DNA of 64,000 bases from Myxococcales bacterium (lineage in GTDB: Bacteria > Myxococcota_A > UBA9160 > SZUA-336): positions 8,880 to 72,879 of the forward strand of contig JABSQV010000130.1 of assembly GCA_013215565.1 (NCBI GenBank), read 5' to 3'. Below the pieces are notes generated by a model. It searched no databases, was not told the DNA's origin, and was given only the letters and a program-made list of their open reading frames with translations. Made by a program: the position numbers and the translations under genes. Shown piece after piece: positions 47,429-62,309 of the stretch (the first letter of the stretch is position 1; every line of letters starts with the position of its first letter).

Positions 47429-48958
47429 CTACCTCCTCGGCACGACATTCGCCGCGCCTCGCTCTTTGTCATCGTGATTCTTGAGGTCGACGACCTCATC
47501 GCAGATCTCGCGCATCGCACCTGTGATCGAGCCCCTGGCGACCGTGAGCCCGAAGACCCGCATTCCGGTCTCCTCGCGGCGCCTGGCCAGCTCGGCCATC
47601 ACCGAGCTGCTCGCCGAGGCGTGCCCGTCGGTCACGAACACGATGTCGGAGCGGTCGTCGGCGGCCTGACCGTTCAGGGCGTACTTGAGGGGCGGGTTGA
47701 AATCGGTTCCGCCGCCAACGCGAGCGGTCACCAACTCCAGCGCGATGTCGGCGGGGCCACCGAGTGCGGTCTCGCCTCGGGTTCGACCCGTGTAGGTGTC
47801 GACATCGACGCGATAGGCGCGCCTCTTCTCGTCGAGGCGATGCACGCTGCAGACCCCACCGTTGAACCCGATGAAGGTCACGGCCCGCTTCTCCTTGATC
47901 GCGGTCTGCATGCAGGAGAGGGCGATGGCGCAAGCCAGCTGATGAGGTTGACCCGACATCGATCCCGAGCGGTCGAGCAGGACGGTCATCGGACCACGAC
48001 CCAGCACCTCGGTCCCGTCGAGCGCGTACTGGAGCAACGACCGCTCGACGACCTTCGCCAGAGTGAGGAGGCGCAGCTTGGGGTGCCGCAGTCCAACGAG
48101 CTGGGACGGGAGTACTCGGGACAGATCTGCGCCGCGCTCGATGCTGACGACCTCAGTGCGGGCGTCGGTCGTGCGGACCCGCTTCTTGGATGCTGCGATC
48201 CGCTGGATGCGTCCCGCCCTGCGGATCACGTCCCGGAGTCGCTTGTTCGACATCAGGTGCTCGGCGAGCTGCATGCGACCCGTGTCCTCCTTCTGGGAGT
48301 AGCCGGGAGGTGCAACTTCAAGACCGGGGGACAGACCGGAGAGTCCGGACTTGACCTCGACGATCTCCTCGTTCGCCTTCTCGGCGGCATCGCGCATCGC
48401 CGCCCGCATCATATCGACGGCTGTGGGCAGATCGCTCTCCTCACCGTTCTCGTCGAGGACGGGATCGTTGAGCTTGTCCCAGTCGCCATCGAAATCCTCG
48501 TTCTGGTCCTCGTCCTTCATGATGTCGGCGAGCTGCTCGCTGGCCGCCCTCATCATCGAAGCAGAGGCGATGGCCGCGAGATCGGGATCGCCGACAACGC
48601 GGGAGGCCAGCTCGGTGAACTCGGGGAGCTGCGAGAGCGCCTCATGCAGCGTCGGAACCCAGCGCGGGCACTTCGGCTCATCGAGCTTGGCGGGCTCGTT
48701 GTACAGTCGCGAGAAGACCTCGGTGCCGAGAGCGTCGGCCGTCGAGTGTGCGAACGACCGAACGCGGGCGACGGCGTTCTTGTTGTCCTCCTGCTCGACC
48801 AGGCCCTCCTCGATGACCTTGGAGGTCTGCAGGATCGCGTTGCCTACGGCCTTGCTGCGGTCACGTCGGATCTCAAACAGCAGGCGCTGCCACTCGCTGG
48901 TGTCGTAGGCGAGCTTGGCGTGGGTGCTGGTCTCGGCGGGCTTGCGTTTCGCGGACAT
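47429..48958 (-). CDS. von Willebrand factor A (VWA) domain protein
   Basis: ATG MSAKRKPAE abutting repeat; C-terminal VLLDRSGSMSG (DxSxS MIDAS) ... VFVTDGH. Confidence 0.6.
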   Translation of the reverse strand: MSAKRKPAETSTHAKLAYDTSEWQRLLFEIRRDRSKAVGNAILQTSKVIEEGLVEQEDNKNAVARVRSFAHSTADALGTEVFSRLYNEPAKLDEPKCPRWVPTLHEALSQLPEFTELASRVVGDPDLAAIASASMMRAASEQLADIMKDEDQNEDFDGDWDKLNDPVLDENGEESDLPTAVDMMRAAMRDAAEKANEEIVEVKSGLSGLSPGLEVAPPGYSQKEDTGRMQLAEHLMSNKRLRDVIRRAGRIQRIAASKKRVRTTDARTEVVSIERGADLSRVLPSQLVGLRHPKLRLLTLAKVVERSLLQYALDGTEVLGRGPMTVLLDRSGSMSGQPHQLACAIALSCMQTAIKEKRAVTFIGFNGGVCSVHRLDEKRRAYRVDVDTYTGRTRGETALGGPADIALELVTARVGGGTDFNPPLKYALNGQAADDRSDIVFVTDGHASASSSVMAELARRREETGMRVFGLTVARGSITGAMREICDEVVDLKNHDDKERGAANVVPRR

Positions 48959-49020
48959 CGGACTCTCTCTGTTGGTAGGTCCATGGTACACAATGACTGG
49001 GTACACCACAACCCCGACGC
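48959..49020 (-). repeat. start-associated repeat variant (GGTAGGTCCATGGTAC ... GGGTACACC)
   Basis: core abutting ATG of VWA gene. Confidence 0.7.
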
Positions 49021-49049
49021 AACGGATGATCGGCGTCGGGGCTCGACTT

Positions 49050-50195
49050 CTAGAAGCGGAGGCGGGACTTCAATTCGAGGGCGATCCGCTCGCGCATGGC
49101 GTCGATCTTCTGCGAGCACTCGAGGACACGGCTCGTCTGGTTGAGCAGCCCGATCTGGTCGCTGTATGCCTCAAGCATATCGGCCGCGCCGGTCGCGGCG
49201 AGCAGGAACGCCTGGCCCTTGGCGGCGAAGTCAACCTTTCGGTATTCGGCCGTCGCGAGATCGAGCGCCTTGCGCGCCTTGCTGATGTCGGGATCGATCA
49301 ACTTGGTGATCGCCGCGTCAACACTCGCGCGCTGGTCGGGCTCGTCCCAGAGGCAGTCGGAGAGGATGTCGAGATCTTCACGGGTGGCGACGGCGCGACC
49401 GTTGAGGAGCGCGTGACCCTTGATCAGTTTGATGGCCTTGCACCAGCGTCGATCGCTGACCACGATCTCATGGTCCATGGCGAGTTTCTCGCGCAGGTCG
49501 AGCACCGCGTCGATGACGGCATCGACGTTGACGGCTGCGGTCTGGGTGCGCAGGTCGTTGACTTGCTCGATGGTCAGCGAGGCCGTGATCTTCGGCTCAT
49601 CGGACGAGGACAGCAGACCGCGCAGCTTGTCGCGGTCGCTGATGTACCCGACCCACCGACGCAGGACGAACCGGTCGAACAGCGCGCCGAGGCTCTCGTC
49701 CTCGGGGAGCTCGTTCGACGCACCGACCATCATCTCCAACGGGATCGAGATCCGCTGGCCGCCGTTGTCGAACTGGCGCTCGTTGATGGCGGTCAACAGA
49801 CCGTTGAGGATCGCGCTGTTGGCTTTGAAGATCTCGTCGGCGAAGGCGACGGTCGCCTCGGGCAGATACCCAGCGGTGACGCGGCGGTACTGATCCTGCT
49901 CAAGTCCCTGCAGGCTGATCGGTCCGAAGACCTCCTCGGGGACGGTGAACTTGGTGAACAGCAACGACCAGGGCGTCCCGCCGAGGGCGGCCGTCAGGGC
50001 GTTGGTCAGCGCGGACTTCGCCGTGCCGGGAGGGCCGAGGAGCAGGACGTGCTCGCCCGCGAGCAAGGCGACCAGCAGGCAGGTCACCTCGCGGCTGCGC
50101 TCGATGAAGGCGCGGTCGAGGTCGACGCGCAGGTCTTGGAGCGCGGCGAGGGTGGTGGGGGCGGTCTGGGCGGTCAGGGCGGCTGGGGCGGTCAT
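49050..50195 (-). CDS. MoxR-family AAA+ ATPase
   Basis: HVLLLGPPGTAKS Walker A, ATVAFADEIFKANSAILNGLLTAINERQF Walker B/sensor typical of MoxR; ATG abutting variant B repeat. Confidence 0.7.
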   Translation of the reverse strand: MTAPAALTAQTAPTTLAALQDLRVDLDRAFIERSREVTCLLVALLAGEHVLLLGPPGTAKSALTNALTAALGGTPWSLLFTKFTVPEEVFGPISLQGLEQDQYRRVTAGYLPEATVAFADEIFKANSAILNGLLTAINERQFDNGGQRISIPLEMMVGASNELPEDESLGALFDRFVLRRWVGYISDRDKLRGLLSSSDEPKITASLTIEQVNDLRTQTAAVNVDAVIDAVLDLREKLAMDHEIVVSDRRWCKAIKLIKGHALLNGRAVATREDLDILSDCLWDEPDQRASVDAAITKLIDPDISKARKALDLATAEYRKVDFAAKGQAFLLAATGAADMLEAYSDQIGLLNQTSRVLECSQKIDAMRERIALELKSRLRF

Positions 50196-50280
50196 TTCGA
50201 TGTCCTCTCTGTTGGTGTGACTCCAAGGTAGAGGAGTCAAGCTCGAATGGATACCCATTAATCGGGTACTCCACCAAGAA
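50196..50280 (-). repeat. start-associated repeat, type B
   Basis: CTCTCTGTTGGTGTGACTCCAAGGTAG ... GGATACCC ... GGGTACTCC. Confidence 0.65.
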
Positions 50281-50360
50281 AGTTGGGCGGGTGGCTCACC
50301 TCGCCATCGCCCCCGGAGTGCTCTCCGGCGACGCGGCGATCTCGGTCTCGGGTCTCTGTA

Positions 50361-51575
50361 CTACGCGGCGGCTTCGGGCGCGGCCTCGACCGGGGCGGGG
50401 GCGGGCGCGTCCAGCTTGGTGAAGACGACGGTGGTCCCGCCCTTCTTTTTGGACAGGCGACCGCGCAGGTTCACCTCGGTCAGGGTCGCGCCGGCGTGGC
50501 GGGTCCAGAACGTGCGGTACTTGCCAGCCCACTCGGGAAACCCGGAGTCGGCGAGCTGCTCGACGGTCAGCTCCATGCCGTGCTTGTCGATGGCGGCTTT
50601 GATCTGGGTCTTCAGCTTCTCGCTTACACCCCGCGCCTTGCGCTTGCCATCGCCCTCGTCCTTCGCGAGTCCGAGGAGCGCGTTCGCCTGCTCGACGGCA
50701 TCGTCGATCTCGGTCTCCAGCTCGCCGAGTCCCAGGTGCAGGCTCTCGGAGTACAACTCGGCATAGGACTTGAGGGTGCGCAGCTCACCGAGCGCCTTCG
50801 CCAGGGAGTCGGCGCGCGGGCGTTGCTCTTTGGACTTCTTGGTCCAGTCGGCGAGGCGCTCGCGGATCCCGGCGAGGCTCTCGCTCGGGACCTTCTTGCC
50901 GTCGGCGACGTTGCCCATCAGGAAGTTCTTGGCCGCGCCGCCGATGCTGGTGCGGCTGGCCTCGGTGTCGGAAACGTGGGTGATGTGCAACGCGCTGTCC
51001 CCGATCTTGCTGACGATGCGGGCGAGCTTCTCGACATCGTCCTGGTGCTGCTTCGGGACGTAGTAGATCCCGCCCGAGTGCTGACGGACCGAGAATGCGC
51101 CGAACGCCTTGAGGGGCGCCTGGATGAGCACGGGGCGGATGAAGTCGTGGTCGAGGTACGTCCGGTCGCTGTCGGCCTGGGCGATGAAGCGGGTCGCCTC
51201 TTCGGTCTTGCCGACGGTCGTCCACTTGTCCATGGCCTTGTCGAACACGACGGTATCGACCTGCTCCCACCTGACCTCTTTGTCGTTGACGCGCTTGTGG
51301 GTCAGGATGCCGACCATCAGCGAGTCGGCGTCCTCGAACACGACCTCGGTGCGGTAGCGCGCCGCGTTGCCGCGTCCCTGCTTCCAGCTTCGGGCCGTGT
51401 CGCGGATCTCGGACACGCTGTTGAGATCGGGGACCACGCTCGGGTTCTCGCCTTCGGACTTCAGGATCTTTCGCAGTGCGGCGGGGGTCGTCTTGGTGTT
51501 GAAAAGATCCCACCAGACGAGGGCGCCGAGGCCGAGGGCCAGGTTGTCCATCATCTGCGTTTTGTCGGTCGTCAT
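50361..51575 (-). CDS. hypothetical protein (404 aa), first gene of leftward early operon
   Basis: ATG MTTDKTQMM abutting repeat; C-terminal Lys/Gly-rich tail. Confidence 0.5.
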   Translation of the reverse strand: MTTDKTQMMDNLALGLGALVWWDLFNTKTTPAALRKILKSEGENPSVVPDLNSVSEIRDTARSWKQGRGNAARYRTEVVFEDADSLMVGILTHKRVNDKEVRWEQVDTVVFDKAMDKWTTVGKTEEATRFIAQADSDRTYLDHDFIRPVLIQAPLKAFGAFSVRQHSGGIYYVPKQHQDDVEKLARIVSKIGDSALHITHVSDTEASRTSIGGAAKNFLMGNVADGKKVPSESLAGIRERLADWTKKSKEQRPRADSLAKALGELRTLKSYAELYSESLHLGLGELETEIDDAVEQANALLGLAKDEGDGKRKARGVSEKLKTQIKAAIDKHGMELTVEQLADSGFPEWAGKYRTFWTRHAGATLTEVNLRGRLSKKKGGTTVVFTKLDAPAPAPVEAAPEAAA

Positions 51576-51600
51576 CGTGTGCCTCTCTGTTGTTGTTTGG
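51576..51600 (-). repeat. start-associated repeat, truncated variant
   Basis: CCTCTCTGTTGTTGTTTGG abutting ATG 51575. Confidence 0.5.
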
Positions 51601-51825
51601 CATGAGGAAGGTCGCATCTGCTGCGTACACTTGCAACCAGGATCGGGAGGTTATTTCTAGGTTTCGTGGAAACCCCGTTGGACTGATGGCTTCTCACGAT
51701 CAGGACGCGAGGGTCGGTCGTATCCTCCTGCCGGAGGGCGAGTTTCGATGCCGCGCCTCTGAGGTTTCGGGTTGTGCTCGTACCCACTCCATGTGTACCT
51801 TGGCGTCACCAACAGAGAGGTCACC
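51576..51825. promoter_or_regulatory. divergent early control region with GGTTTCGTGGAAACC palindrome
   Basis: 250-bp spacer between leftward (51575) and rightward (51826) starts; perfect 6-3-6 palindrome at ~51661-51675; plus-orientation copy of start repeat at 51790-51825. Confidence 0.45.
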
Positions 51826-56115: not shown

Positions 56116-56666
56116 TCATCGATCCCAACAGCAGTGGAGGCGTCGGCAAAGGGCGCAAGGTGTTCCACGGCGTCGGTCTCCGACGCTGGGAGAGCAGCAC
56201 CGGGACCCCCATCCTCGACATCGGCCTGGTCGTGCTCAAGGACATGGAGGGCGACGGCAACGAGAACCTGCAGTGCCGCGCGCGGTTCTTCCTCACGGCC
56301 AACGCGGGCTGGCGCCTGGGCAACTTCGCCAAGGCGTGCGGTCACGGCGAGCCCTTCGACGCCTTCGACGACGACGCCATCGCCAAGTTCATGGCGAAGG
56401 GTCCGATGATCGCGACCGTCGAGATGGAAGAGTACCAGGGCAACTCGTACCCCCGCCCCGGCAAGTGGGCGTCCTACTCGGGCGCCGAAGATCCCGAGTG
56501 GGCCGAGATGATCCAGAACGCCGAAGCCAAGTTCGCCGAGTGGGTCGAGAAGCAGGAAGAGGAGCACGGGGGCAGCAGCTCCTCGGGCAGCAGCTCGGGC
56601 GGCTCGTCGAGCAGTGGCGGCTCGACGGGCGGCGGTGGCGGCCCAGACTCAGACATTCCATTCTAA
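56112..56666 (+). CDS. single-stranded DNA-binding protein with Gly/Ser linker and C-terminal DIPF tail
   Basis: C-terminus GGSSSSGSSSGGSSSSGGSTGGGGGPDSDIPF equals SSB acidic tip motif D-I-P-F. Confidence 0.5.
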   Translation: MIIDPNSSGGVGKGRKVFHGVGLRRWESSTGTPILDIGLVVLKDMEGDGNENLQCRARFFLTANAGWRLGNFAKACGHGEPFDAFDDDAIAKFMAKGPMIATVEMEEYQGNSYPRPGKWASYSGAEDPEWAEMIQNAEAKFAEWVEKQEEEHGGSSSSGSSSGGSSSSGGSTGGGGGPDSDIPF

Positions 56667-56679
56667 TCCTGAGGTGCCT

Positions 56680-57117
56680 GTGCGCGTCTGCAACACATGT
56701 GGCGAAACCAAGCCGGTGGGTGACTTCTACGCGAGGCCACGCACCAAATGCAAGGAATGCCACAAAGAGGCGGTGCGCGCACGACGCCAGAGGAGCCCGG
56801 ATCGTGCTCGATCATACGACCGGGCGCGAAGCGTTCTGCCGCATCGGGTGGAAGCACGAAAGACCTACCAGGGAACGCCTGCCTTTCGTGCCAGCCACAA
56901 TCGTGCCACCAGGCGGTGGCAGGCTAAGAACCCAGAGAAGCGAGCCGCACACATAGCTGTTGGGAACGCTGTCCGTGACGGCTTGTTGCAGCGGCGTCCA
57001 TGCTCTGAATGCGGATCGTCGCCAGCACAGGCGCACCATGATGACTACTCCAAGCCTTTGGTTGTTCGCTGGCTTTGCAAGCCCTGTCACGACACCGAAC
57101 ACGCTAGGAGCCTGTGA
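56680..57117 (+). CDS. HNH endonuclease with N-terminal zinc ribbon
   Basis: GTG with GAGGTG SD; CNTCGE...CKEC then AHHDDYSKP...RWLCKPCH. Confidence 0.55.
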   Translation: MRVCNTCGETKPVGDFYARPRTKCKECHKEAVRARRQRSPDRARSYDRARSVLPHRVEARKTYQGTPAFRASHNRATRRWQAKNPEKRAAHIAVGNAVRDGLLQRRPCSECGSSPAQAHHDDYSKPLVVRWLCKPCHDTEHARSL

Positions 57118-58842: not shown

Positions 58843-59232
58843 ATGCCGAAGCCCACACCCATCGAAGTCCAGTTCATCTGGGAGACCTGGCGGCAGACCC
58901 GCCCTCGTCCGAACCTCTGCAGGTTCACCAAGGATCGGGACAAGCTGATCAAGGCTCGCCTCGAGCTGGGGTACTCGGCGACCGATCTGGTCGCACTGGT
59001 CCGCTACATGACCGAGAGCAATGACAGCCTCCCCCGCTGGATGCGAGGGGACAACCCGCGCAAGAAGTCCTACATGGACCTCGACAACCTCTTCCGCGTC
59101 GGCCAGCTCGGCAAGCGCGTCGAGGCGGCCCTCATCTGGATCGAGGAGTTGGAGAAGCAGTCGACGCCCGACGCCTCGAACCCCTGCGGTACCGAGCTGG
59201 GTCCGATGGGTCGCTTCGGGCGCGGTTCATGA
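58843..59232 (+). CDS. hypothetical protein
   Basis: ATG with GGAGGA SD. Confidence 0.45.
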   Translation: MPKPTPIEVQFIWETWRQTRPRPNLCRFTKDRDKLIKARLELGYSATDLVALVRYMTESNDSLPRWMRGDNPRKKSYMDLDNLFRVGQLGKRVEAALIWIEELEKQSTPDASNPCGTELGPMGRFGRGS

Positions 59233-62200
59233 GTCAGAGCCAGGCGTGGATCGCCAACGTCAAGTCGAGGACCCTGACGACCGTCGCCCCAACCCTCGGC
59301 CTCAGGCCGATGCGAATGAACAGCTACGGACCGTGCCCAGCCTGCAGCGAGTCCCAGCGAGGTAGCGACGATCGGCGCGGTGCCATCGGAGCGGCGAAGG
59401 ACAAGCGCGGTTGGCGCTGCCATCGGTGCAACGTCAAGGGCGATGCCGTCGACCTGATCGCGTGGGTCAAGTACGGCAAGGGCTCCAGTGACCTCACCGG
59501 GGGTGAGTGGCACGAGATCCGCGACTGGTGCAGCGATGAAGGGTGGTGCGACTCAGCTGCCGCTGGCGGCGAGGGCAGAGCCAAGACCCGCTCGGCGGGG
59601 TCGTTGGTTCAGGGGCTCATGGGTCAAGACCGCAGACGCGATCGTTCCCCCAGCGTGCCCAGCGACAGCCCTCCGAAGGAACGATCGGGGAACGGTGGCC
59701 CGTTCGCGTGGCGGGAAGGTCTCGCCGAGGAGTGTGCGATTCGACTTCTAGGAGCCTCGCGGTCGGTGGCGACCGAGCTCCCAGAGCGACTCAACCCCGA
59801 GCCCGACGCCTGTGCCGACGCGGTGATGCAGTACCTGCAGGAAGGTCGGATGTTCACCCTCGACACGATCAAGGAATGGGGTCTCGGCTGCATCCAGGTC
59901 AAGGGCGAGCCCTGGCTGACGATCCCACTCCGAGATCACAGCGAGAGGGTTGTAAACGTCCGTTTCCGCAGCGTCCCCCCAGCCAAGAAGGCGTACCGAG
60001 TCTGCCCTGGCCGACCGCTGCCCCTGTTCGGCGCTGACCGACTGGGGATGGATCTCGGCTCCCCGGTGCTGGTCACTGAGGGGGAGCTCGATGTCATCGC
60101 CATGTGGCAGTACGGCTACCAGGTGAGCGTGGTCAGCGGGACCGCTGGGGCATCGACCTGGAAGGACGAATGGCTCGATGCCCTGGAAGCCTATGAGGGG
60201 TTCACCCTGCTCTCGGACAACGATGATGCGGGCAACGCCCACGCCAAAGCCTTCGCCGAGAAGATAGGGCTTGACCGATGCTCTCGGGCGATCCTCCCGC
60301 GCAAGGATGCGGGGCAGTGCCTCATCGACGAGATCCCGGTCGAGAGCGTCGGCCGGTGCATCGAGTTGTCTCAGCCGATGTTCGGGATCAAGTTGAAGCG
60401 GGTCGACGCCTACGAGGGCGATCTCCAACGACTGATCGACAACCCTGAGGAGTTGGTCGGCCGACCCACGGCATCGAAGGCGATCAACCGCTCGCTCGGA
60501 GGGTGGCGGCCTGGTCTGATCATCCTCGGTGGTGACACCGGTCAAGGTAAGGCCCAGCCTGTCGACGAACCGGTGCTGACCCCAAGCGGAAAGTGGGTGC
60601 CCATCGGATCTCTATCTCCAGGCGATAAGGTGGTGGCCGTTGACGGCAAGCCCACCAAGGTGTCAGGCGTGTTCCCGCAAGGGGTGCGAGAGATCCGAGA
60701 GGTGGAATTCAGCGACGGTACTCGCGTGCGTTGTGATCGCGAGCATCTGTGGTCCGTTCGAACCGACACACACGTAAGGCGAGGCCAGGCTGGGAAGGTG
60801 ATCACGATCGACGAGATCGCTTCCTCACTTCGCGGAGATGGTGGTCGATACCGCTGGCGCGTTCCGCTGGCTGACCCTACGGACAGGCCCGACACTGACC
60901 TCCCACTCGATCCCTACGTGTTGGGTGTCCTGCTTGGCGATGGGAGCACGACGCGCCGCGCCGTGGTGTTCACAAGCGCAGATTCAGAAGTTATCGACGG
61001 GGTGCGAGCGCGGCTCCCTGCTGGTCATCGAATGTCTGTGTCCGACACCCCCAGTAAGGCAAGGCGGTGCAACATTGCGGCCGGAACCGCTGATCGAAAC
61101 CAAGTGACCCACGCACTTCGCGGCCTTGGGGTCTGGGGTAAGCGCGCCCGCGACAAGTTCGTACCTGAGACCTACCTGATGGGTTCCGTGAACCAAAGAT
61201 TGGAGTTGTTGCAAGGGTTGATGGACACCGACGGCTACGCCTCAACGAAAGGATGGTGCATCTTCACAACATCGTCTGAAAAGCTGGCTCAAGGCGTGCG
61301 CGATCTGGCCCACAGCCTCGGCGGCTCGACTCGGACAAATACCAAGATCCCAACCTACAGATACGGAGGGAAGAAGCATCAAGGATTGCTCGCCCACAAT
61401 GTGATCGTGGTGCTTCCCAATGGCCTACACCAGCGCATGTTCACCATCGAGCGGAAGCGAGACAGGATCAAACGAGTCTGGAAGCCGATGCGAAAGATCG
61501 TGGCTGTACACGATGCTGGCAAGGCCGAATGTGTGTGCATCGCGGTCGACCATCCGAAACATCTCTACGTGACTCGCGGGTGGATCGTGACCCACAACAC
61601 AACGGCGGGCACCTGGGCATGCTGGGAGGATTGCAGGCGCGGCACCCCGACCATGATCACCAGCTTTGAGAACAGGCCCGTCGCCGCGATCCAGAAGTTG
61701 CTCCGGATGCAGCTCGGCGGGGACTTCCTCAGAGTGACACCCGACGAGAGGCGCGAGGCGCTCCGCGAGCTGGGGCACATGCCGTTGCACGTCGTTGACC
61801 ACTACGGGCAGATCGAGCCCAAGGTGTTGATGGAGAGCATTCGGTACGGCGCCCGCCGGCTCGGGGTGAAGATGGTGCTGGTCGATCATCTGGGGTTCTT
61901 GGTGAGCCCTGACGCGGACGATGAACGCCGAACCATCGAGGCGGTCATCCGCGCCCTCGCCCTCACGGCCTATACCTACGGGGTGACCATCTTCCTCGTC
62001 TGCCACCCCAAGACCCTGGAGCGTGGACAGACGGTGCCCACCATGAACGACTTTAAGGGGGCGTCGGCGATCAAGCAGGATGCATCAGAGGTCATCATCA
62101 TCGAGCGCGATCCGCCGCGTCCGAATGCCAAGCCGCCCCGCGATTGGCCGGCGGCGATCTGGCACTTCACAAAGGTGCGGTCGGAGTTTGGTATTCCTGG

Positions 62201-62309
62201 ATCGAAGGCAACTCTGGCGTTCGGCCCGCTGTCGTGCAGGTACGCCGATGCCTGGGAGCTACTGCCCGACGCATCGGGTGGGCAACTGCTGATCGTCCCG
62301 CCGACTTAG
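59229..62309 (+). CDS. primase-helicase (CHC2 zinc finger + TOPRIM + DnaB-like P-loop helicase) containing an intein
   Basis: CPACSE...WRCHRC zinc finger; VLVTEGELDVIAMWQYG...LLSDNDDAGN TOPRIM; Walker A GDTGQGK/TT split by intein; RecA-like helicase motifs after. Confidence 0.8.
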   Translation: MSQSQAWIANVKSRTLTTVAPTLGLRPMRMNSYGPCPACSESQRGSDDRRGAIGAAKDKRGWRCHRCNVKGDAVDLIAWVKYGKGSSDLTGGEWHEIRDWCSDEGWCDSAAAGGEGRAKTRSAGSLVQGLMGQDRRRDRSPSVPSDSPPKERSGNGGPFAWREGLAEECAIRLLGASRSVATELPERLNPEPDACADAVMQYLQEGRMFTLDTIKEWGLGCIQVKGEPWLTIPLRDHSERVVNVRFRSVPPAKKAYRVCPGRPLPLFGADRLGMDLGSPVLVTEGELDVIAMWQYGYQVSVVSGTAGASTWKDEWLDALEAYEGFTLLSDNDDAGNAHAKAFAEKIGLDRCSRAILPRKDAGQCLIDEIPVESVGRCIELSQPMFGIKLKRVDAYEGDLQRLIDNPEELVGRPTASKAINRSLGGWRPGLIILGGDTGQGKAQPVDEPVLTPSGKWVPIGSLSPGDKVVAVDGKPTKVSGVFPQGVREIREVEFSDGTRVRCDREHLWSVRTDTHVRRGQAGKVITIDEIASSLRGDGGRYRWRVPLADPTDRPDTDLPLDPYVLGVLLGDGSTTRRAVVFTSADSEVIDGVRARLPAGHRMSVSDTPSKARRCNIAAGTADRNQVTHALRGLGVWGKRARDKFVPETYLMGSVNQRLELLQGLMDTDGYASTKGWCIFTTSSEKLAQGVRDLAHSLGGSTRTNTKIPTYRYGGKKHQGLLAHNVIVVLPNGLHQRMFTIERKRDRIKRVWKPMRKIVAVHDAGKAECVCIAVDHPKHLYVTRGWIVTHNTTAGTWACWEDCRRGTPTMITSFENRPVAAIQKLLRMQLGGDFLRVTPDERREALRELGHMPLHVVDHYGQIEPKVLMESIRYGARRLGVKMVLVDHLGFLVSPDADDERRTIEAVIRALALTAYTYGVTIFLVCHPKTLERGQTVPTMNDFKGASAIKQDASEVIIIERDPPRPNAKPPRDWPAAIWHFTKVRSEFGIPGSKATLAFGPLSCRYADAWELLPDASGGQLLIVPPT
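60552..61598 (+). mobile_element. 349-aa intein with LAGLIDADG homing endonuclease inserted in helicase P-loop
   Basis: Begins after GGDTGQGK, ends IVTHN followed by +1 Thr restoring GKTT; two LAGLIDADG blocks (LGVLLGDGS, LQGLMDTDGYAS); locally lower GC. Confidence 0.7.

What the first reader, a model, noticed from the sequence alone, without database searches (positions are those of the whole stretch)
60552..61598. LAGLIDADG intein in the Walker A loop of the primase-helicase
The P-loop reads GGDTGQGK|AQPV...IVTHN|TTAGTW; removing 349 aa restores GDTGQGKTT. Two LAGLIDADG motifs and a GC drop (runs of tct/cta/gat codons) mark a homing element. The intein starts with Ala rather than Cys/Ser, so it would use a class 3-type or non-canonical splicing route (block F WCIF).
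Basis: partly seen in the sequence, partly recalled or inferred. Interest (0 to 1): 0.6.

Follow-up and report, generated by a model that had tools for sequence, protein, structure and literature searches.

The report
Class 3 intein splitting phage helicase P-loop
A self-splicing, mobile protein insert (an intein with its own homing endonuclease) interrupts the ATP-binding loop of a phage primase-helicase; it is real and well preserved, but it is a typical member of the already described "class 3" inteins.

Summary
Window 60552-61598 (+) is a 349-codon in-frame insert in a 1026-aa Zn-ribbon/Toprim/DnaB-like primase-helicase (59229-62309). Removing it restores GDTGQGK|TT. In the aligned set of homologues, 29 have nothing at this site and 4 carry an orthologous insert starting AQPV.

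It is a full-length class 3 intein. It has Ala1, block B D62-x-x-H65-x-W67, block F Cys329, block G T347-H348-N349 and Thr+1. These residues align with the catalytic residues of the solved class 3 DnaB P-loop inteins (6bs8, 6rix) and are 58-59/59 conserved among relatives. The nested endonuclease has two LAGLIDADG motifs. D130, K202 and D227 align with PI-SceI D218, K301 and D326. The AlphaFold model (pLDDT 96) superposes on PI-SceI (TM 0.75-0.77).

GC3 is 0.68 against 0.84±0.04 in other genes, so the insert is compositionally foreign. A related phage pair (extein DNA 98.9% identical) differs by a precise 1026-nt intein presence/absence.

"WCIF" lies in the endonuclease domain. The true block F is ECVC329IAV, and the W of the WCT triplet is W67.

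Splicing and homing are inferred, not shown. This is a new member of a known kind, of low to moderate interest.

The parts
59229..62309 (+). Precursor gene: 1026-aa primase-helicase with an intein (stop codon included).
   Evidence: ORF list. Pfam Toprim_2 at aa 282-360, DnaB_C at aa 842-962, LAGLIDADG_3 at aa 656-710. The identical protein is on record on two metagenome scaffolds.
59229..60551 (+). N-extein (441 aa). It holds a Cys4 zinc ribbon (CPAC at nt 59334, CHRC at nt 59418), a Toprim primase core (nt 60072-60308), a linker, and the first half of Walker A (GDTGQGK, nt 60531-60551, with Lys at -1).
   Evidence: Collinear with 29 intein-free homologues up to the GK.
60552..61598 (+). Class 3 intein, 349 aa (Ala1 to Asn349), with a nested LAGLIDADG homing endonuclease.
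60552..60590 (+). Block A (AQPVDEPVLTPSG). Ala1 is non-nucleophilic.
   Evidence: A1 in 56/59 and G13 in 59/59 relatives. 'GK|AQP' junctions recur in many host proteins.
60717..60758 (+). Block B (GTRVRCDREHLWSV). It holds D62, His65 (position 10) and Trp67 (position 12, the W of the WCT triplet).
   Evidence: Aligned to H65/W67 of 6rix and 6bs8. H65 in 59/59 and W67 in 58/59 relatives.
60906..60944 (+). LAGLIDADG motif 1 (block C), with the catalytic-position Asp130.
   Evidence: D130 in 58/59 relatives. Aligns to PI-SceI D218.
61146..61169 (+). Block D region (ARDKFVPE) with Lys202.
   Evidence: K202 in 58/59 relatives. Aligns to PI-SceI K301.
61197..61238 (+). LAGLIDADG motif 2 (block E), with Asp227.
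   Evidence: D227 in 59/59 relatives. Aligns to PI-SceI D326. Pfam LAGLIDADG_3.
61521..61574 (+). Block F (KAECVCIAVDHPKHLYVT). Cys329 (nt 61536-61538) is the predicted initiating nucleophile.
   Evidence: Aligned to Cys124 of MchDnaB-1 and the block F Cys of Msm DnaBi1. C329 in 59/59 relatives.
61578..61598 (+). Block G (GWIVTHN). It holds Thr347 (the T of the WCT triplet), His348 and the terminal Asn349.
   Evidence: All three residues in 59/59 relatives. Aligned to T143-H144-N145 of 6rix.
61599..62309 (+). C-extein (236 aa plus stop). Thr+1 (nt 61599-61601) is the Walker A Thr and the acceptor nucleophile. The rest of the RecA/DnaB-like helicase core follows (DnaB_C hit at nt 61752-62114).
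   Evidence: Residue +1 is T in 43, S in 13 and C in 2 of 58 relatives.

Best explanation
The segment is a full-length class 3 intein nested in the Walker A loop (GDTGQGK|T) of a T7-gp4/twinkle-type primase-helicase. The host is an uncultivated tailed phage of about 78 kb.

Likely mechanism:
1. The 1026-aa precursor is translated with a split, and presumably ATPase-dead, P-loop.
2. The HINT domain folds. Cys329 (block F position 4) attacks the Lys(-1)-Ala1 peptide bond, activated by His65 and positioned by Trp67 and Thr347. This forms a thioester branched intermediate.
3. The N-extein is passed by transesterification to the hydroxyl of Thr+1.
4. Asn349 cyclises, helped by His348, and releases the intein.
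5. An O-to-N acyl shift makes the native Lys-Thr bond. The result is an active 677-aa helicase with GDTGQGKTT.
6. The freed 349-aa intein is a PI-SceI-like monomeric LAGLIDADG endonuclease. During co-infection it is expected to cut the intein-less P-loop coding sequence of related phages. Recombinational repair then copies the intein in (homing).

What is shown here: the exact insertion, the conservation of every catalytic residue, the predicted fold, the foreign composition, and the presence/absence polymorphism in relatives. What is inferred from characterised homologues: the chemistry and the endonuclease activity.
For: - Exact in-frame 349-aa insert whose removal restores Walker A. In the aligned set, 29 homologues have 0 residues at the site and 4 others have a 338-346-aa insert starting AQPV and ending THN|T/S.
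- Sequence hits to solved class 3 inteins: MchDnaB-1 (6rix, E=5.7e-12) and Msm DnaBi1 (6bs8, 2.1e-11). H65, W67, C329, T347, H348 and N349 align to their H65, W67, block F Cys and T-H-N.
- The class 3 definition in PMC2807308 and PMC5050341 is a non-nucleophilic residue 1, a WCT triplet at B12/F4/G5, and Thr/Ser at +1, mostly in ATPase P-loops. All of these are met.
- In a 59-sequence alignment: H65 59/59, W67 58/59, C329 59/59, T347/H348/N349 59/59, A1 56/59. Residue +1 is T or S in 56/58 and residue -1 is K in 45/58.
- AlphaFold2 model with pLDDT 96.4 and pTM 0.93. Foldseek's top hits are PI-SceI (TMq 0.75-0.77, E=2e-18). The HINT part hits 6riy, 6rix and 6bs8 at 28-31% identity.
- Endonuclease residues D130, K202 and D227 are conserved in 58-59/59 and align to PI-SceI D218, K301 and D326.
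- Foreign composition: GC3 z = -4.5.
- Mobility in relatives: P0016 (intein+) and P0012 (intein-) have 99.8% identical exteins. They differ at 22 of 2001 nt and by a precise 1026-nt insertion. Two synonymous changes lie in codons +1 and +2 at the junction.
- Phage context: tape measure, major head, portal and TerL genes, plus a replication module with a PD-(D/E)XK exonuclease and an AAA_24 protein.
Against: - No experiment: neither splicing nor DNA cleavage was observed.
- No intein-free allele of this particular phage is known. The nearest intein-free extein is only 63% identical.
- The five orthologous inteins are only 47-56% identical to each other, about as divergent as their exteins. Long vertical residence with repeated loss therefore fits as well as repeated homing.
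- The endonuclease could be inactive despite its conserved motifs.
- The prototype MP-Be DnaB intein could not be retrieved for a direct comparison.
Confidence: 0.9

Rival explanations
1. It is a splicing-competent class 3 intein whose endonuclease is no longer active. It would then be a resident, vertically inherited passenger that persists only because imprecise loss would destroy the P-loop.
For: The orthologous inteins in this helicase family are as divergent as their exteins (47-56% vs 44-60% identity). No intein-free near-identical allele of this phage was found.
Against: D130, K202, D227 and the glycine framework of both LAGLIDADG motifs are 58-59/59 conserved across relatives in many hosts. 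The endonuclease domain is modelled at high confidence. GC3 is still far from the host value. A near-identical intein+/intein- pair exists in a sister lineage.
Confidence: 0.2
2. It is a class 2 (KlbA-like) Ala1 intein. Thr+1 would attack the N-terminal junction directly, with no block F thioester intermediate.
For: Ala1 is also the hallmark of the KlbA class 2 inteins (PMC2807308).
Against: The complete WCT triplet is present and essentially invariant. According to PMC2807308, the KlbA inteins are precisely the N-nucleophile-lacking inteins that fall outside the WCT group. Block B here is DxxH-x-W as in Msm DnaBi1 (PMC6195587), not the standard TxxH. The nearest solved relatives are experimentally class 3.
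Confidence: 0.03
3. It is a conserved, non-spliced domain insertion, or a decayed intein pseudogene like Arthrobacter FB24 Arth_1007. In that case the 1026-aa protein is the final product or is non-functional.
For: None beyond the absence of experimental proof of splicing. Decayed class 3-like inteins are known (PMC3196547, abstract).
Against: The aligned set contains 29 homologues with no insert. The insert splits the Lys and Thr of Walker A, in the only replicative helicase found in the replication module. Every splicing residue is intact and the reading frame is open. The Arthrobacter case has Gly1 and a WDT triplet, not WCT.
Confidence: 0.02

Closest known systems
Mycobacterial DnaB-b P-loop class 3 inteins: Msm DnaBi1 (PDB 6bs8/6own), Mle DnaB, MchDnaB-1 (PDB 6rix/6riy)
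   Same: Ala1, and Asp62/His65/Trp67 with identical numbering. Block F catalytic Cys, and a T-H-N C-terminus. Ser/Thr at +1 is the Walker A hydroxyl residue. The insertion lies between the GK and S/T of the P-loop of an SF4 replicative helicase. These are the best PDB sequence hits (E about 1e-11), with 28-31% identity over the HINT part.
   Different: They are mini-inteins of 139-145 aa that have lost the endonuclease, and they sit in bacterial chromosomal DnaB. The intein here keeps a complete LAGLIDADG endonuclease and sits in a phage gp4-type fused primase-helicase.
Mycobacteriophage Bethlehem DnaB intein (MP-Be DnaB), the class 3 prototype (PMC2807308)
   Same: It is phage-borne and full length with an endonuclease domain (341 aa). 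It has His65/Trp67, a block F Cys (Cys320), Thr339, Asn341 and Thr+1. The obligate block F nucleophile mechanism was defined on it.
   Different: It starts with Pro1 after Gln-1, rather than Ala1 after Lys-1. Its sequence could not be retrieved here, so the percentage identity is unknown.
'GK|AQP...THN|T/S' Ala1 class 3 inteins in PhoH, SNF2/HepA-like helicases, RecG, DnaB, terminases and AAA_24 proteins of phages and bacteria
   Same: 34-47% identity over the whole 349 aa, including the endonuclease. They share the same N-terminal AQP(V/L)D signature, WCT triplet and P-loop target. Annotated phage examples include Serratia phage BUCT660 helicase (40.9%), PhiPA3 gp233 and the Mycobacterium phage Alice helicase.
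   Different: They sit in different host proteins. The four inteins at the same site in primase-helicase homologues are closer (49-53%) and form a site-specific allele group.
PI-SceI (Sce VMA1 intein) and other bifunctional intein-endonucleases (PI-PfuI, Tli/Pho VMA)
   Same: The same two-domain architecture, a HINT domain plus a monomeric double-LAGLIDADG endonuclease. TMq is 0.75-0.77. The catalytic D218/K301/D326 equivalents are present.
   Different: PI-SceI is a class 1 intein (Cys1) of 454 aa, with about 17% identity, in a eukaryotic V-ATPase host.
KlbA class 2 inteins
   Same: Ala at position 1.
   Different: According to PMC2807308, KlbA inteins fall outside the WCT group and use the standard block B Thr and His. 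Here the WCT triplet, Thr+1 and a DxxH block B are present.

Membership tests
Intein (HINT self-splicing element) | In-frame insertion in a conserved host protein, absent from orthologues, with exact collinearity of the flanks | tested here: met
   In the aligned set, 29 homologues have 0 residues at the site, and the flanks read GK|[TS]T. A DNA-level precise 1026-nt presence/absence is seen in the P0016/P0012 pair.
Intein (HINT self-splicing element) | Splicing blocks A, B, F and G, a C-terminal His-Asn, and a Ser/Thr/Cys at +1 | tested here: met
   H65, H348 and N349 are invariant and Thr is at +1.
Intein (HINT self-splicing element) | HINT fold | tested here: met
   The predicted model has pLDDT 96.4. 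It matches PI-SceI, MchDnaB-1, Msm DnaBi1, gp41-1, Npu DnaE and hedgehog Hint domains. This is a prediction, not a solved structure.
Intein (HINT self-splicing element) | Protein splicing actually occurs (ligated exteins plus free intein) | not testable with these tools
   Needs expression and SDS-PAGE or mass spectrometry.
Class 3 intein | Non-nucleophilic first residue | tested here: met
   Ala1. A1 in 56/59 relatives.
Class 3 intein | WCT triplet: Trp at block B position 12, Cys at block F position 4, Thr at block G position 5 | tested here: met
   W67, C329 and T347 align to W67, C124 and T143 of 6rix (residue numbers from PMC7664689). They are 58/59, 59/59 and 59/59 conserved.
Class 3 intein | [quoted passage not shown] | tested here: met
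   Thr+1, which is the Walker A Thr.
Class 3 intein | Obligate block F Cys forming a thioester branched intermediate | not testable with these tools
   Needs C329A, N349A and T+1A mutants and thiol-lability assays as in PMC2807308.
Class 2 (KlbA-type) intein | Ala1 without the WCT triplet, a standard block B Thr/His, and direct attack by the +1 residue | tested here: not met
   The WCT triplet is present, block B reads DxxH, and +1 is Thr.
LAGLIDADG (double-motif, PI-SceI-like) homing endonuclease | Two LAGLIDADG motifs, each ending in a conserved acidic residue, plus the block D Lys | tested here: met
   D130, D227 and K202. Pfam LAGLIDADG_3 scores 39.1 bits against a cut-off of 22.5.
LAGLIDADG (double-motif, PI-SceI-like) homing endonuclease | Site-specific cleavage of the intein-less allele, and homing | not testable with these tools
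   The evidence is indirect only: sporadic distribution, an intein+/- pair with junction-adjacent synonymous changes, and foreign GC3.
SF4 phage primase-helicase (T7 gp4 / twinkle type), the host protein | Zn ribbon, Toprim primase and a DnaB/RecA-like helicase with Walker A, all in one polypeptide | tested here: met
   CPAC and CHRC zinc-ribbon motifs, Toprim_2, DnaB_C, and a restored GDTGQGKTT. Homologues are labelled 'twinkle protein'. There is about 26% identity to annotated phage DNA primase/helicases.

The most novel reading that the evidence does not exclude
The intein may be more than a selfish passenger. It could be a conditional switch on phage DNA replication. Cys61 lies next to the block B Asp/His, and Cys327 lies two residues before the catalytic Cys329. 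These are semi-conserved (41/59 and 29/59). They could form a reversible disulfide or a metal site with Cys329, as Cys48-Cys118 does in Msm DnaBi1. Helicase maturation would then be held back under oxidative or zinc stress in the infected cell.
Probability: 0.1. Interest if true: 0.45.

Novelty: new member of a known kind. Interest (0 to 1): 0.2.

Why it matters
For annotation, the gene should be called as one intein-containing primase-helicase with a mature product of 677 aa. It is not a 1026-aa protein of odd architecture or a fusion.

For intein biology, it adds a well-preserved, endonuclease-bearing Ala1 class 3 intein at the SF4 P-loop ("DnaB-b"-equivalent) site in a gp4-type phage helicase from an uncultivated phage lineage. 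Together with four orthologous alleles and a natural intein+/intein- pair, it fits the published idea that phages spread class 3 inteins between P-loop ATPases.

It could also serve as a source of a compact splicing domain that needs only Thr at +1 for protein engineering.

It does not change what is known about how inteins work.

Tried and rejected
- **Megablast of the gene against 50,697 phage records:** no match. The phage has no close cultured relative. The spliced extein reaches only about 26% identity to annotated primase/helicases.
- **IMG/VR scan with the intein:** only 26-33% identical full-length relatives, plus one 41% partial match. No close allele was found.
- **Retrieval of the class 3 prototype from Mycobacterium phage Bethlehem (AY500153, 26-50 kb):** only a class 1 intein in gp52 (C...GN|S) was found, with no similarity to ours. 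The direct comparison was dropped and the solved class 3 inteins were used instead.
- **NCBIfam:** only sub-threshold hits, to intein-containing DnaB, RecA and GyrA models and to ordinary DnaB/DnaG helicase and primase models.
- **'WCIF' as block F:** rejected. It lies at aa 235-238, inside the endonuclease domain.
- **Class 2 chemistry, conserved non-spliced insertion, and pseudogene:** all rejected (see the rival explanations).
- **Other inteins or HINT/LAGLIDADG domains in the large genes scanned in the window:** none found.
- **Model coordinates:** not available to scripts, so Cys-Cys and Cys-scissile-bond distances could not be measured.
Full report
**1. The observation**

The window holds one long ORF at 59229..62309 (+) of 1026 aa. 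Translating 60510-61640 gives ...PGLIILGGDTGQGK AQPVDEPV...RGWIVTHN TTAGTWACWEDC....

A script placed the insert at aa 442-790, which is nt 60552-61598 and 349 aa. Removing it gives GDTGQGKTTAGTW, an intact Walker A.

Pfam finds Toprim_2 (aa 282-360) and DnaB_C (aa 842-962) in the flanks. Inside the insert it finds LAGLIDADG_3 (E=9e-10, above the gathering score) and Hom_end.

The GC drop is real.
- GC is 59.7% in the insert against 65% and 64% in the flanks.
- GC3 is 0.676, against 0.796 and 0.835 in the flanks and 0.843±0.037 in 349-codon windows of 13 other genes (z = -4.5, below the minimum of 0.722).
- A/T-ending codons are 32% against 19% (p = 3e-6).
- The specific "tct/cta/gat runs" are not much of a signal: 4 TCT, 2 CTA, and GAT not enriched.

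**2. Is it an insertion relative to homologues?**

I searched the spliced 677-aa extein against the protein database. It returned 179 homologues, nearly all of 630-770 aa and without LAGLIDADG domains. It also returned the identical 1026-aa protein and four other long proteins of 969-1043 aa.

A MAFFT alignment of 34 of these shows a clean pattern.
- 29 have zero residues between GK and [TS]T.
- The five long ones carry 338-349 aa at exactly this point.
- All five inserts start AQPV and end THN, followed by T or S.

For four of the five intein-bearing proteins, the nearest extein relative is intein-free. The exception is the most divergent one, P0111, whose nearest relatives are all about equally distant.

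P0016 (intein+) and P0012 (intein-) have 99.8% identical exteins. At the DNA level (loci L003 and L004) they differ at 22 of 2001 extein positions and by a precise 1026-nt insertion at GGAAAG|ACG. Two of the 22 differences are synonymous changes in codons +1 and +2, right at the junction.

By a hand Poisson estimate, about 0.07 differences are expected in those 6 nt. The clustering is therefore unlikely to be chance, with the caveat that the interval was chosen after seeing the data. It looks like co-conversion, or a target-site change linked to homing.

**3. What kind of intein?**

A sequence search of the PDB puts three class 3 mini-intein entries on top: MchDnaB-1 (6rix, E=5.7e-12; 6riy) and Msm DnaBi1 (6bs8, E=2.1e-11).

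The printed alignments pair:
- the query's E-H65-L-W67 with their H65-Q-W67;
- ECVC329IAVDHPKHLY with RC(124)VEVDNPAHLY;
- T347-H348-N349 with T143-H144-N145.

The papers define class 3 by three features: a non-nucleophilic first residue, the Trp/Cys/Thr triplet at block B position 12, block F position 4 and block G position 5, and Thr/Ser at +1. They also state that most such inteins sit in ATPase P-loops of helicases and terminases (PMC2807308; PMC5050341).

Msm DnaBi1 has Ala1, Asp62, His65, Trp67, a block F Cys, T-H-N and Ser+1. It sits in the DnaB P-loop at "site b" (PMC6195587; PMC4760082). The window's intein has the same residues with the same numbering in the N-terminal half.

A database search with the intein itself found 274 relatives at 29-47% identity. 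They are embedded in PhoH, DnaB, SNF2, RecG, terminase, AAA_24, IstB-like and dCTP-deaminase proteins. Mapping their junctions shows the recurring pattern GK|AQP(V/L)D...THN|T/S.

| Residue in the 59-sequence alignment | Conservation |
|---|---|
| H65, C329, T347, H348, N349 | 59/59 |
| W67 | 58/59 |
| A1 | 56/59 |
| +1 is T or S | 56/58 |
| -1 is K | 45/58 |

So class 3 membership is met on every sequence criterion. The class 2 (KlbA) signature is not met.

W235-C236-I237-F238 follows the second LAGLIDADG motif, inside the endonuclease domain.

**4. Structure**

AlphaFold2 with the 59-sequence alignment gives a confident model (pLDDT 96.4, pTM 0.93).

Foldseek against the PDB puts PI-SceI first (E=2e-18, TMq 0.75-0.77). 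Next come the Tli/Pho VMA and PI-PfuI inteins, then I-DmoI for the endonuclease part. The class 3 inteins 6riy, 6rix and 6bs8 match the HINT part at 28-31% identity.

HMMER aligns D130, K202 and D227 with PI-SceI D218, K301 and D326. To my knowledge these are the PI-SceI catalytic residues; that statement rests on established literature and was not tested here. They are 58/59, 58/59 and 59/59 conserved. The endonuclease therefore looks intact.

**5. Context**

The identical protein lies on two ENA metagenome scaffolds of 78 kb and 21 kb. It is flanked by a PD-(D/E)XK exonuclease, an AAA_24 ATPase and many small ORFs with no family match.

The window also encodes a tape-measure protein, major head protein, portal and large terminase (PHROGs). 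It has no tRNAs. It is a tailed phage genome, and the intein sits in its replication module.

There is no DNA-level match among 50,697 phage records. The extein is only about 26% identical to annotated phage primase/helicases. IMG/VR holds only distant intein relatives.

**6. Mechanism**

This section is inferred from the characterised class 3 inteins.
1. The precursor has a split P-loop and should be ATPase-inactive.
2. Cys329, in a Cys-His-Thr arrangement with His65 and Thr347 and packed by Trp67, attacks the Lys(-1)-Ala1 bond. This gives a thioester branch.
3. The N-extein moves to the hydroxyl of Thr+1.
4. Asn349 cyclises, assisted by His348.
5. An O-N shift forms Lys-Thr and restores GDTGQGKTT.
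6. The freed intein acts as a homing endonuclease on intein-less alleles during co-infection.

The foreign GC3 and the intein+/intein- pair support mobility. However, the orthologous inteins are as divergent as their exteins. Long residence with repeated loss therefore cannot be excluded, and the endonuclease may be inactive in this copy (rival, about 0.2).

**7. Comparison and novelty**

It works like the mycobacterial DnaB-b inteins and the phage Bethlehem prototype, and on sequence criteria it belongs to the same class. It differs from the solved members in keeping its endonuclease and in its host protein, a phage gp4-type fused primase-helicase.

The five alleles at this site are closer to each other (47-56% identity; 49-53% to the window copy) than the window intein is to relatives in other hosts (at most about 44% over the full length). 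They therefore form a site-specific allele group known only from metagenomes.

This is a new member of a known kind. Class 3 inteins in helicase P-loops of phages are the textbook case, so a specialist would not be surprised.

The one open and more interesting possibility is redox- or metal-conditional splicing through the semi-conserved Cys61 and Cys327 next to the active site, by analogy with Msm DnaBi1. This is untested.

**8. Verdict**

Confidence in the intein call is about 0.9. Interest is 0.2.

Noticed in passing
window 47432-51617 (-): Three adjacent phage genes encode a VWA_2-domain protein (47432-49009), a bpMoxR-type AAA+ ATPase (49053-50258, Pfam E=5e-57) and a DUF6744 protein (50364-51617). 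This is a MoxR-vWA type module inside a phage genome.
   Followed up: partly
window 56614-57117 (+): A 167-aa Cys-rich ORF ends in ...[24 protein letters not shown], which looks HNH-like. It could be a free-standing endonuclease in the replication module. It has no Pfam hit and is not in the ENA gene calls.
   Followed up: partly
L003 1501-4527 vs L004 314-2314: This is a natural intein+/intein- allele pair of a related phage primase-helicase. The extein DNA is 98.9% identical (22/2001 differences) and the insertion is a precise 1026 nt. Two synonymous differences lie in codons +1 and +2 at the junction, and the downstream DNA is 99.4% identical.
   Followed up: yes
window 60732-60734 (Cys61) and 61530-61532 (Cys327): Two extra cysteines flank the splicing active site and are semi-conserved in the family (C61 41/59, C327 29/59; position 62 is Cys in 30/59). 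They are possible disulfide or metal partners of the catalytic Cys329, as described for Msm DnaBi1. Distances could not be measured.
   Followed up: partly
proteins P0190-P0240, junctions: The same Ala1/WCT intein family is also inserted in dCTP deaminases, at ...RLEGK|ALALDT.... This is a Lys(-1) site that is not a P-loop.
   Followed up: no
L005 1578-3296 (-), Mycobacterium phage Bethlehem gp52: The annotated 'phosphoesterase' carries a class 1 intein (EGNHD|CSWT...LTGN|SRA, with a penultimate Gly). It is unrelated in sequence to the window's intein. The class 3 'MP-Be DnaB' prototype was not found in record region 26-50 kb.
   Followed up: partly
window 59229-59232: The primase-helicase start codon overlaps the stop of the upstream 129-aa gene (ATGA-type overlap), which suggests translational coupling within the replication operon.
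   Followed up: no
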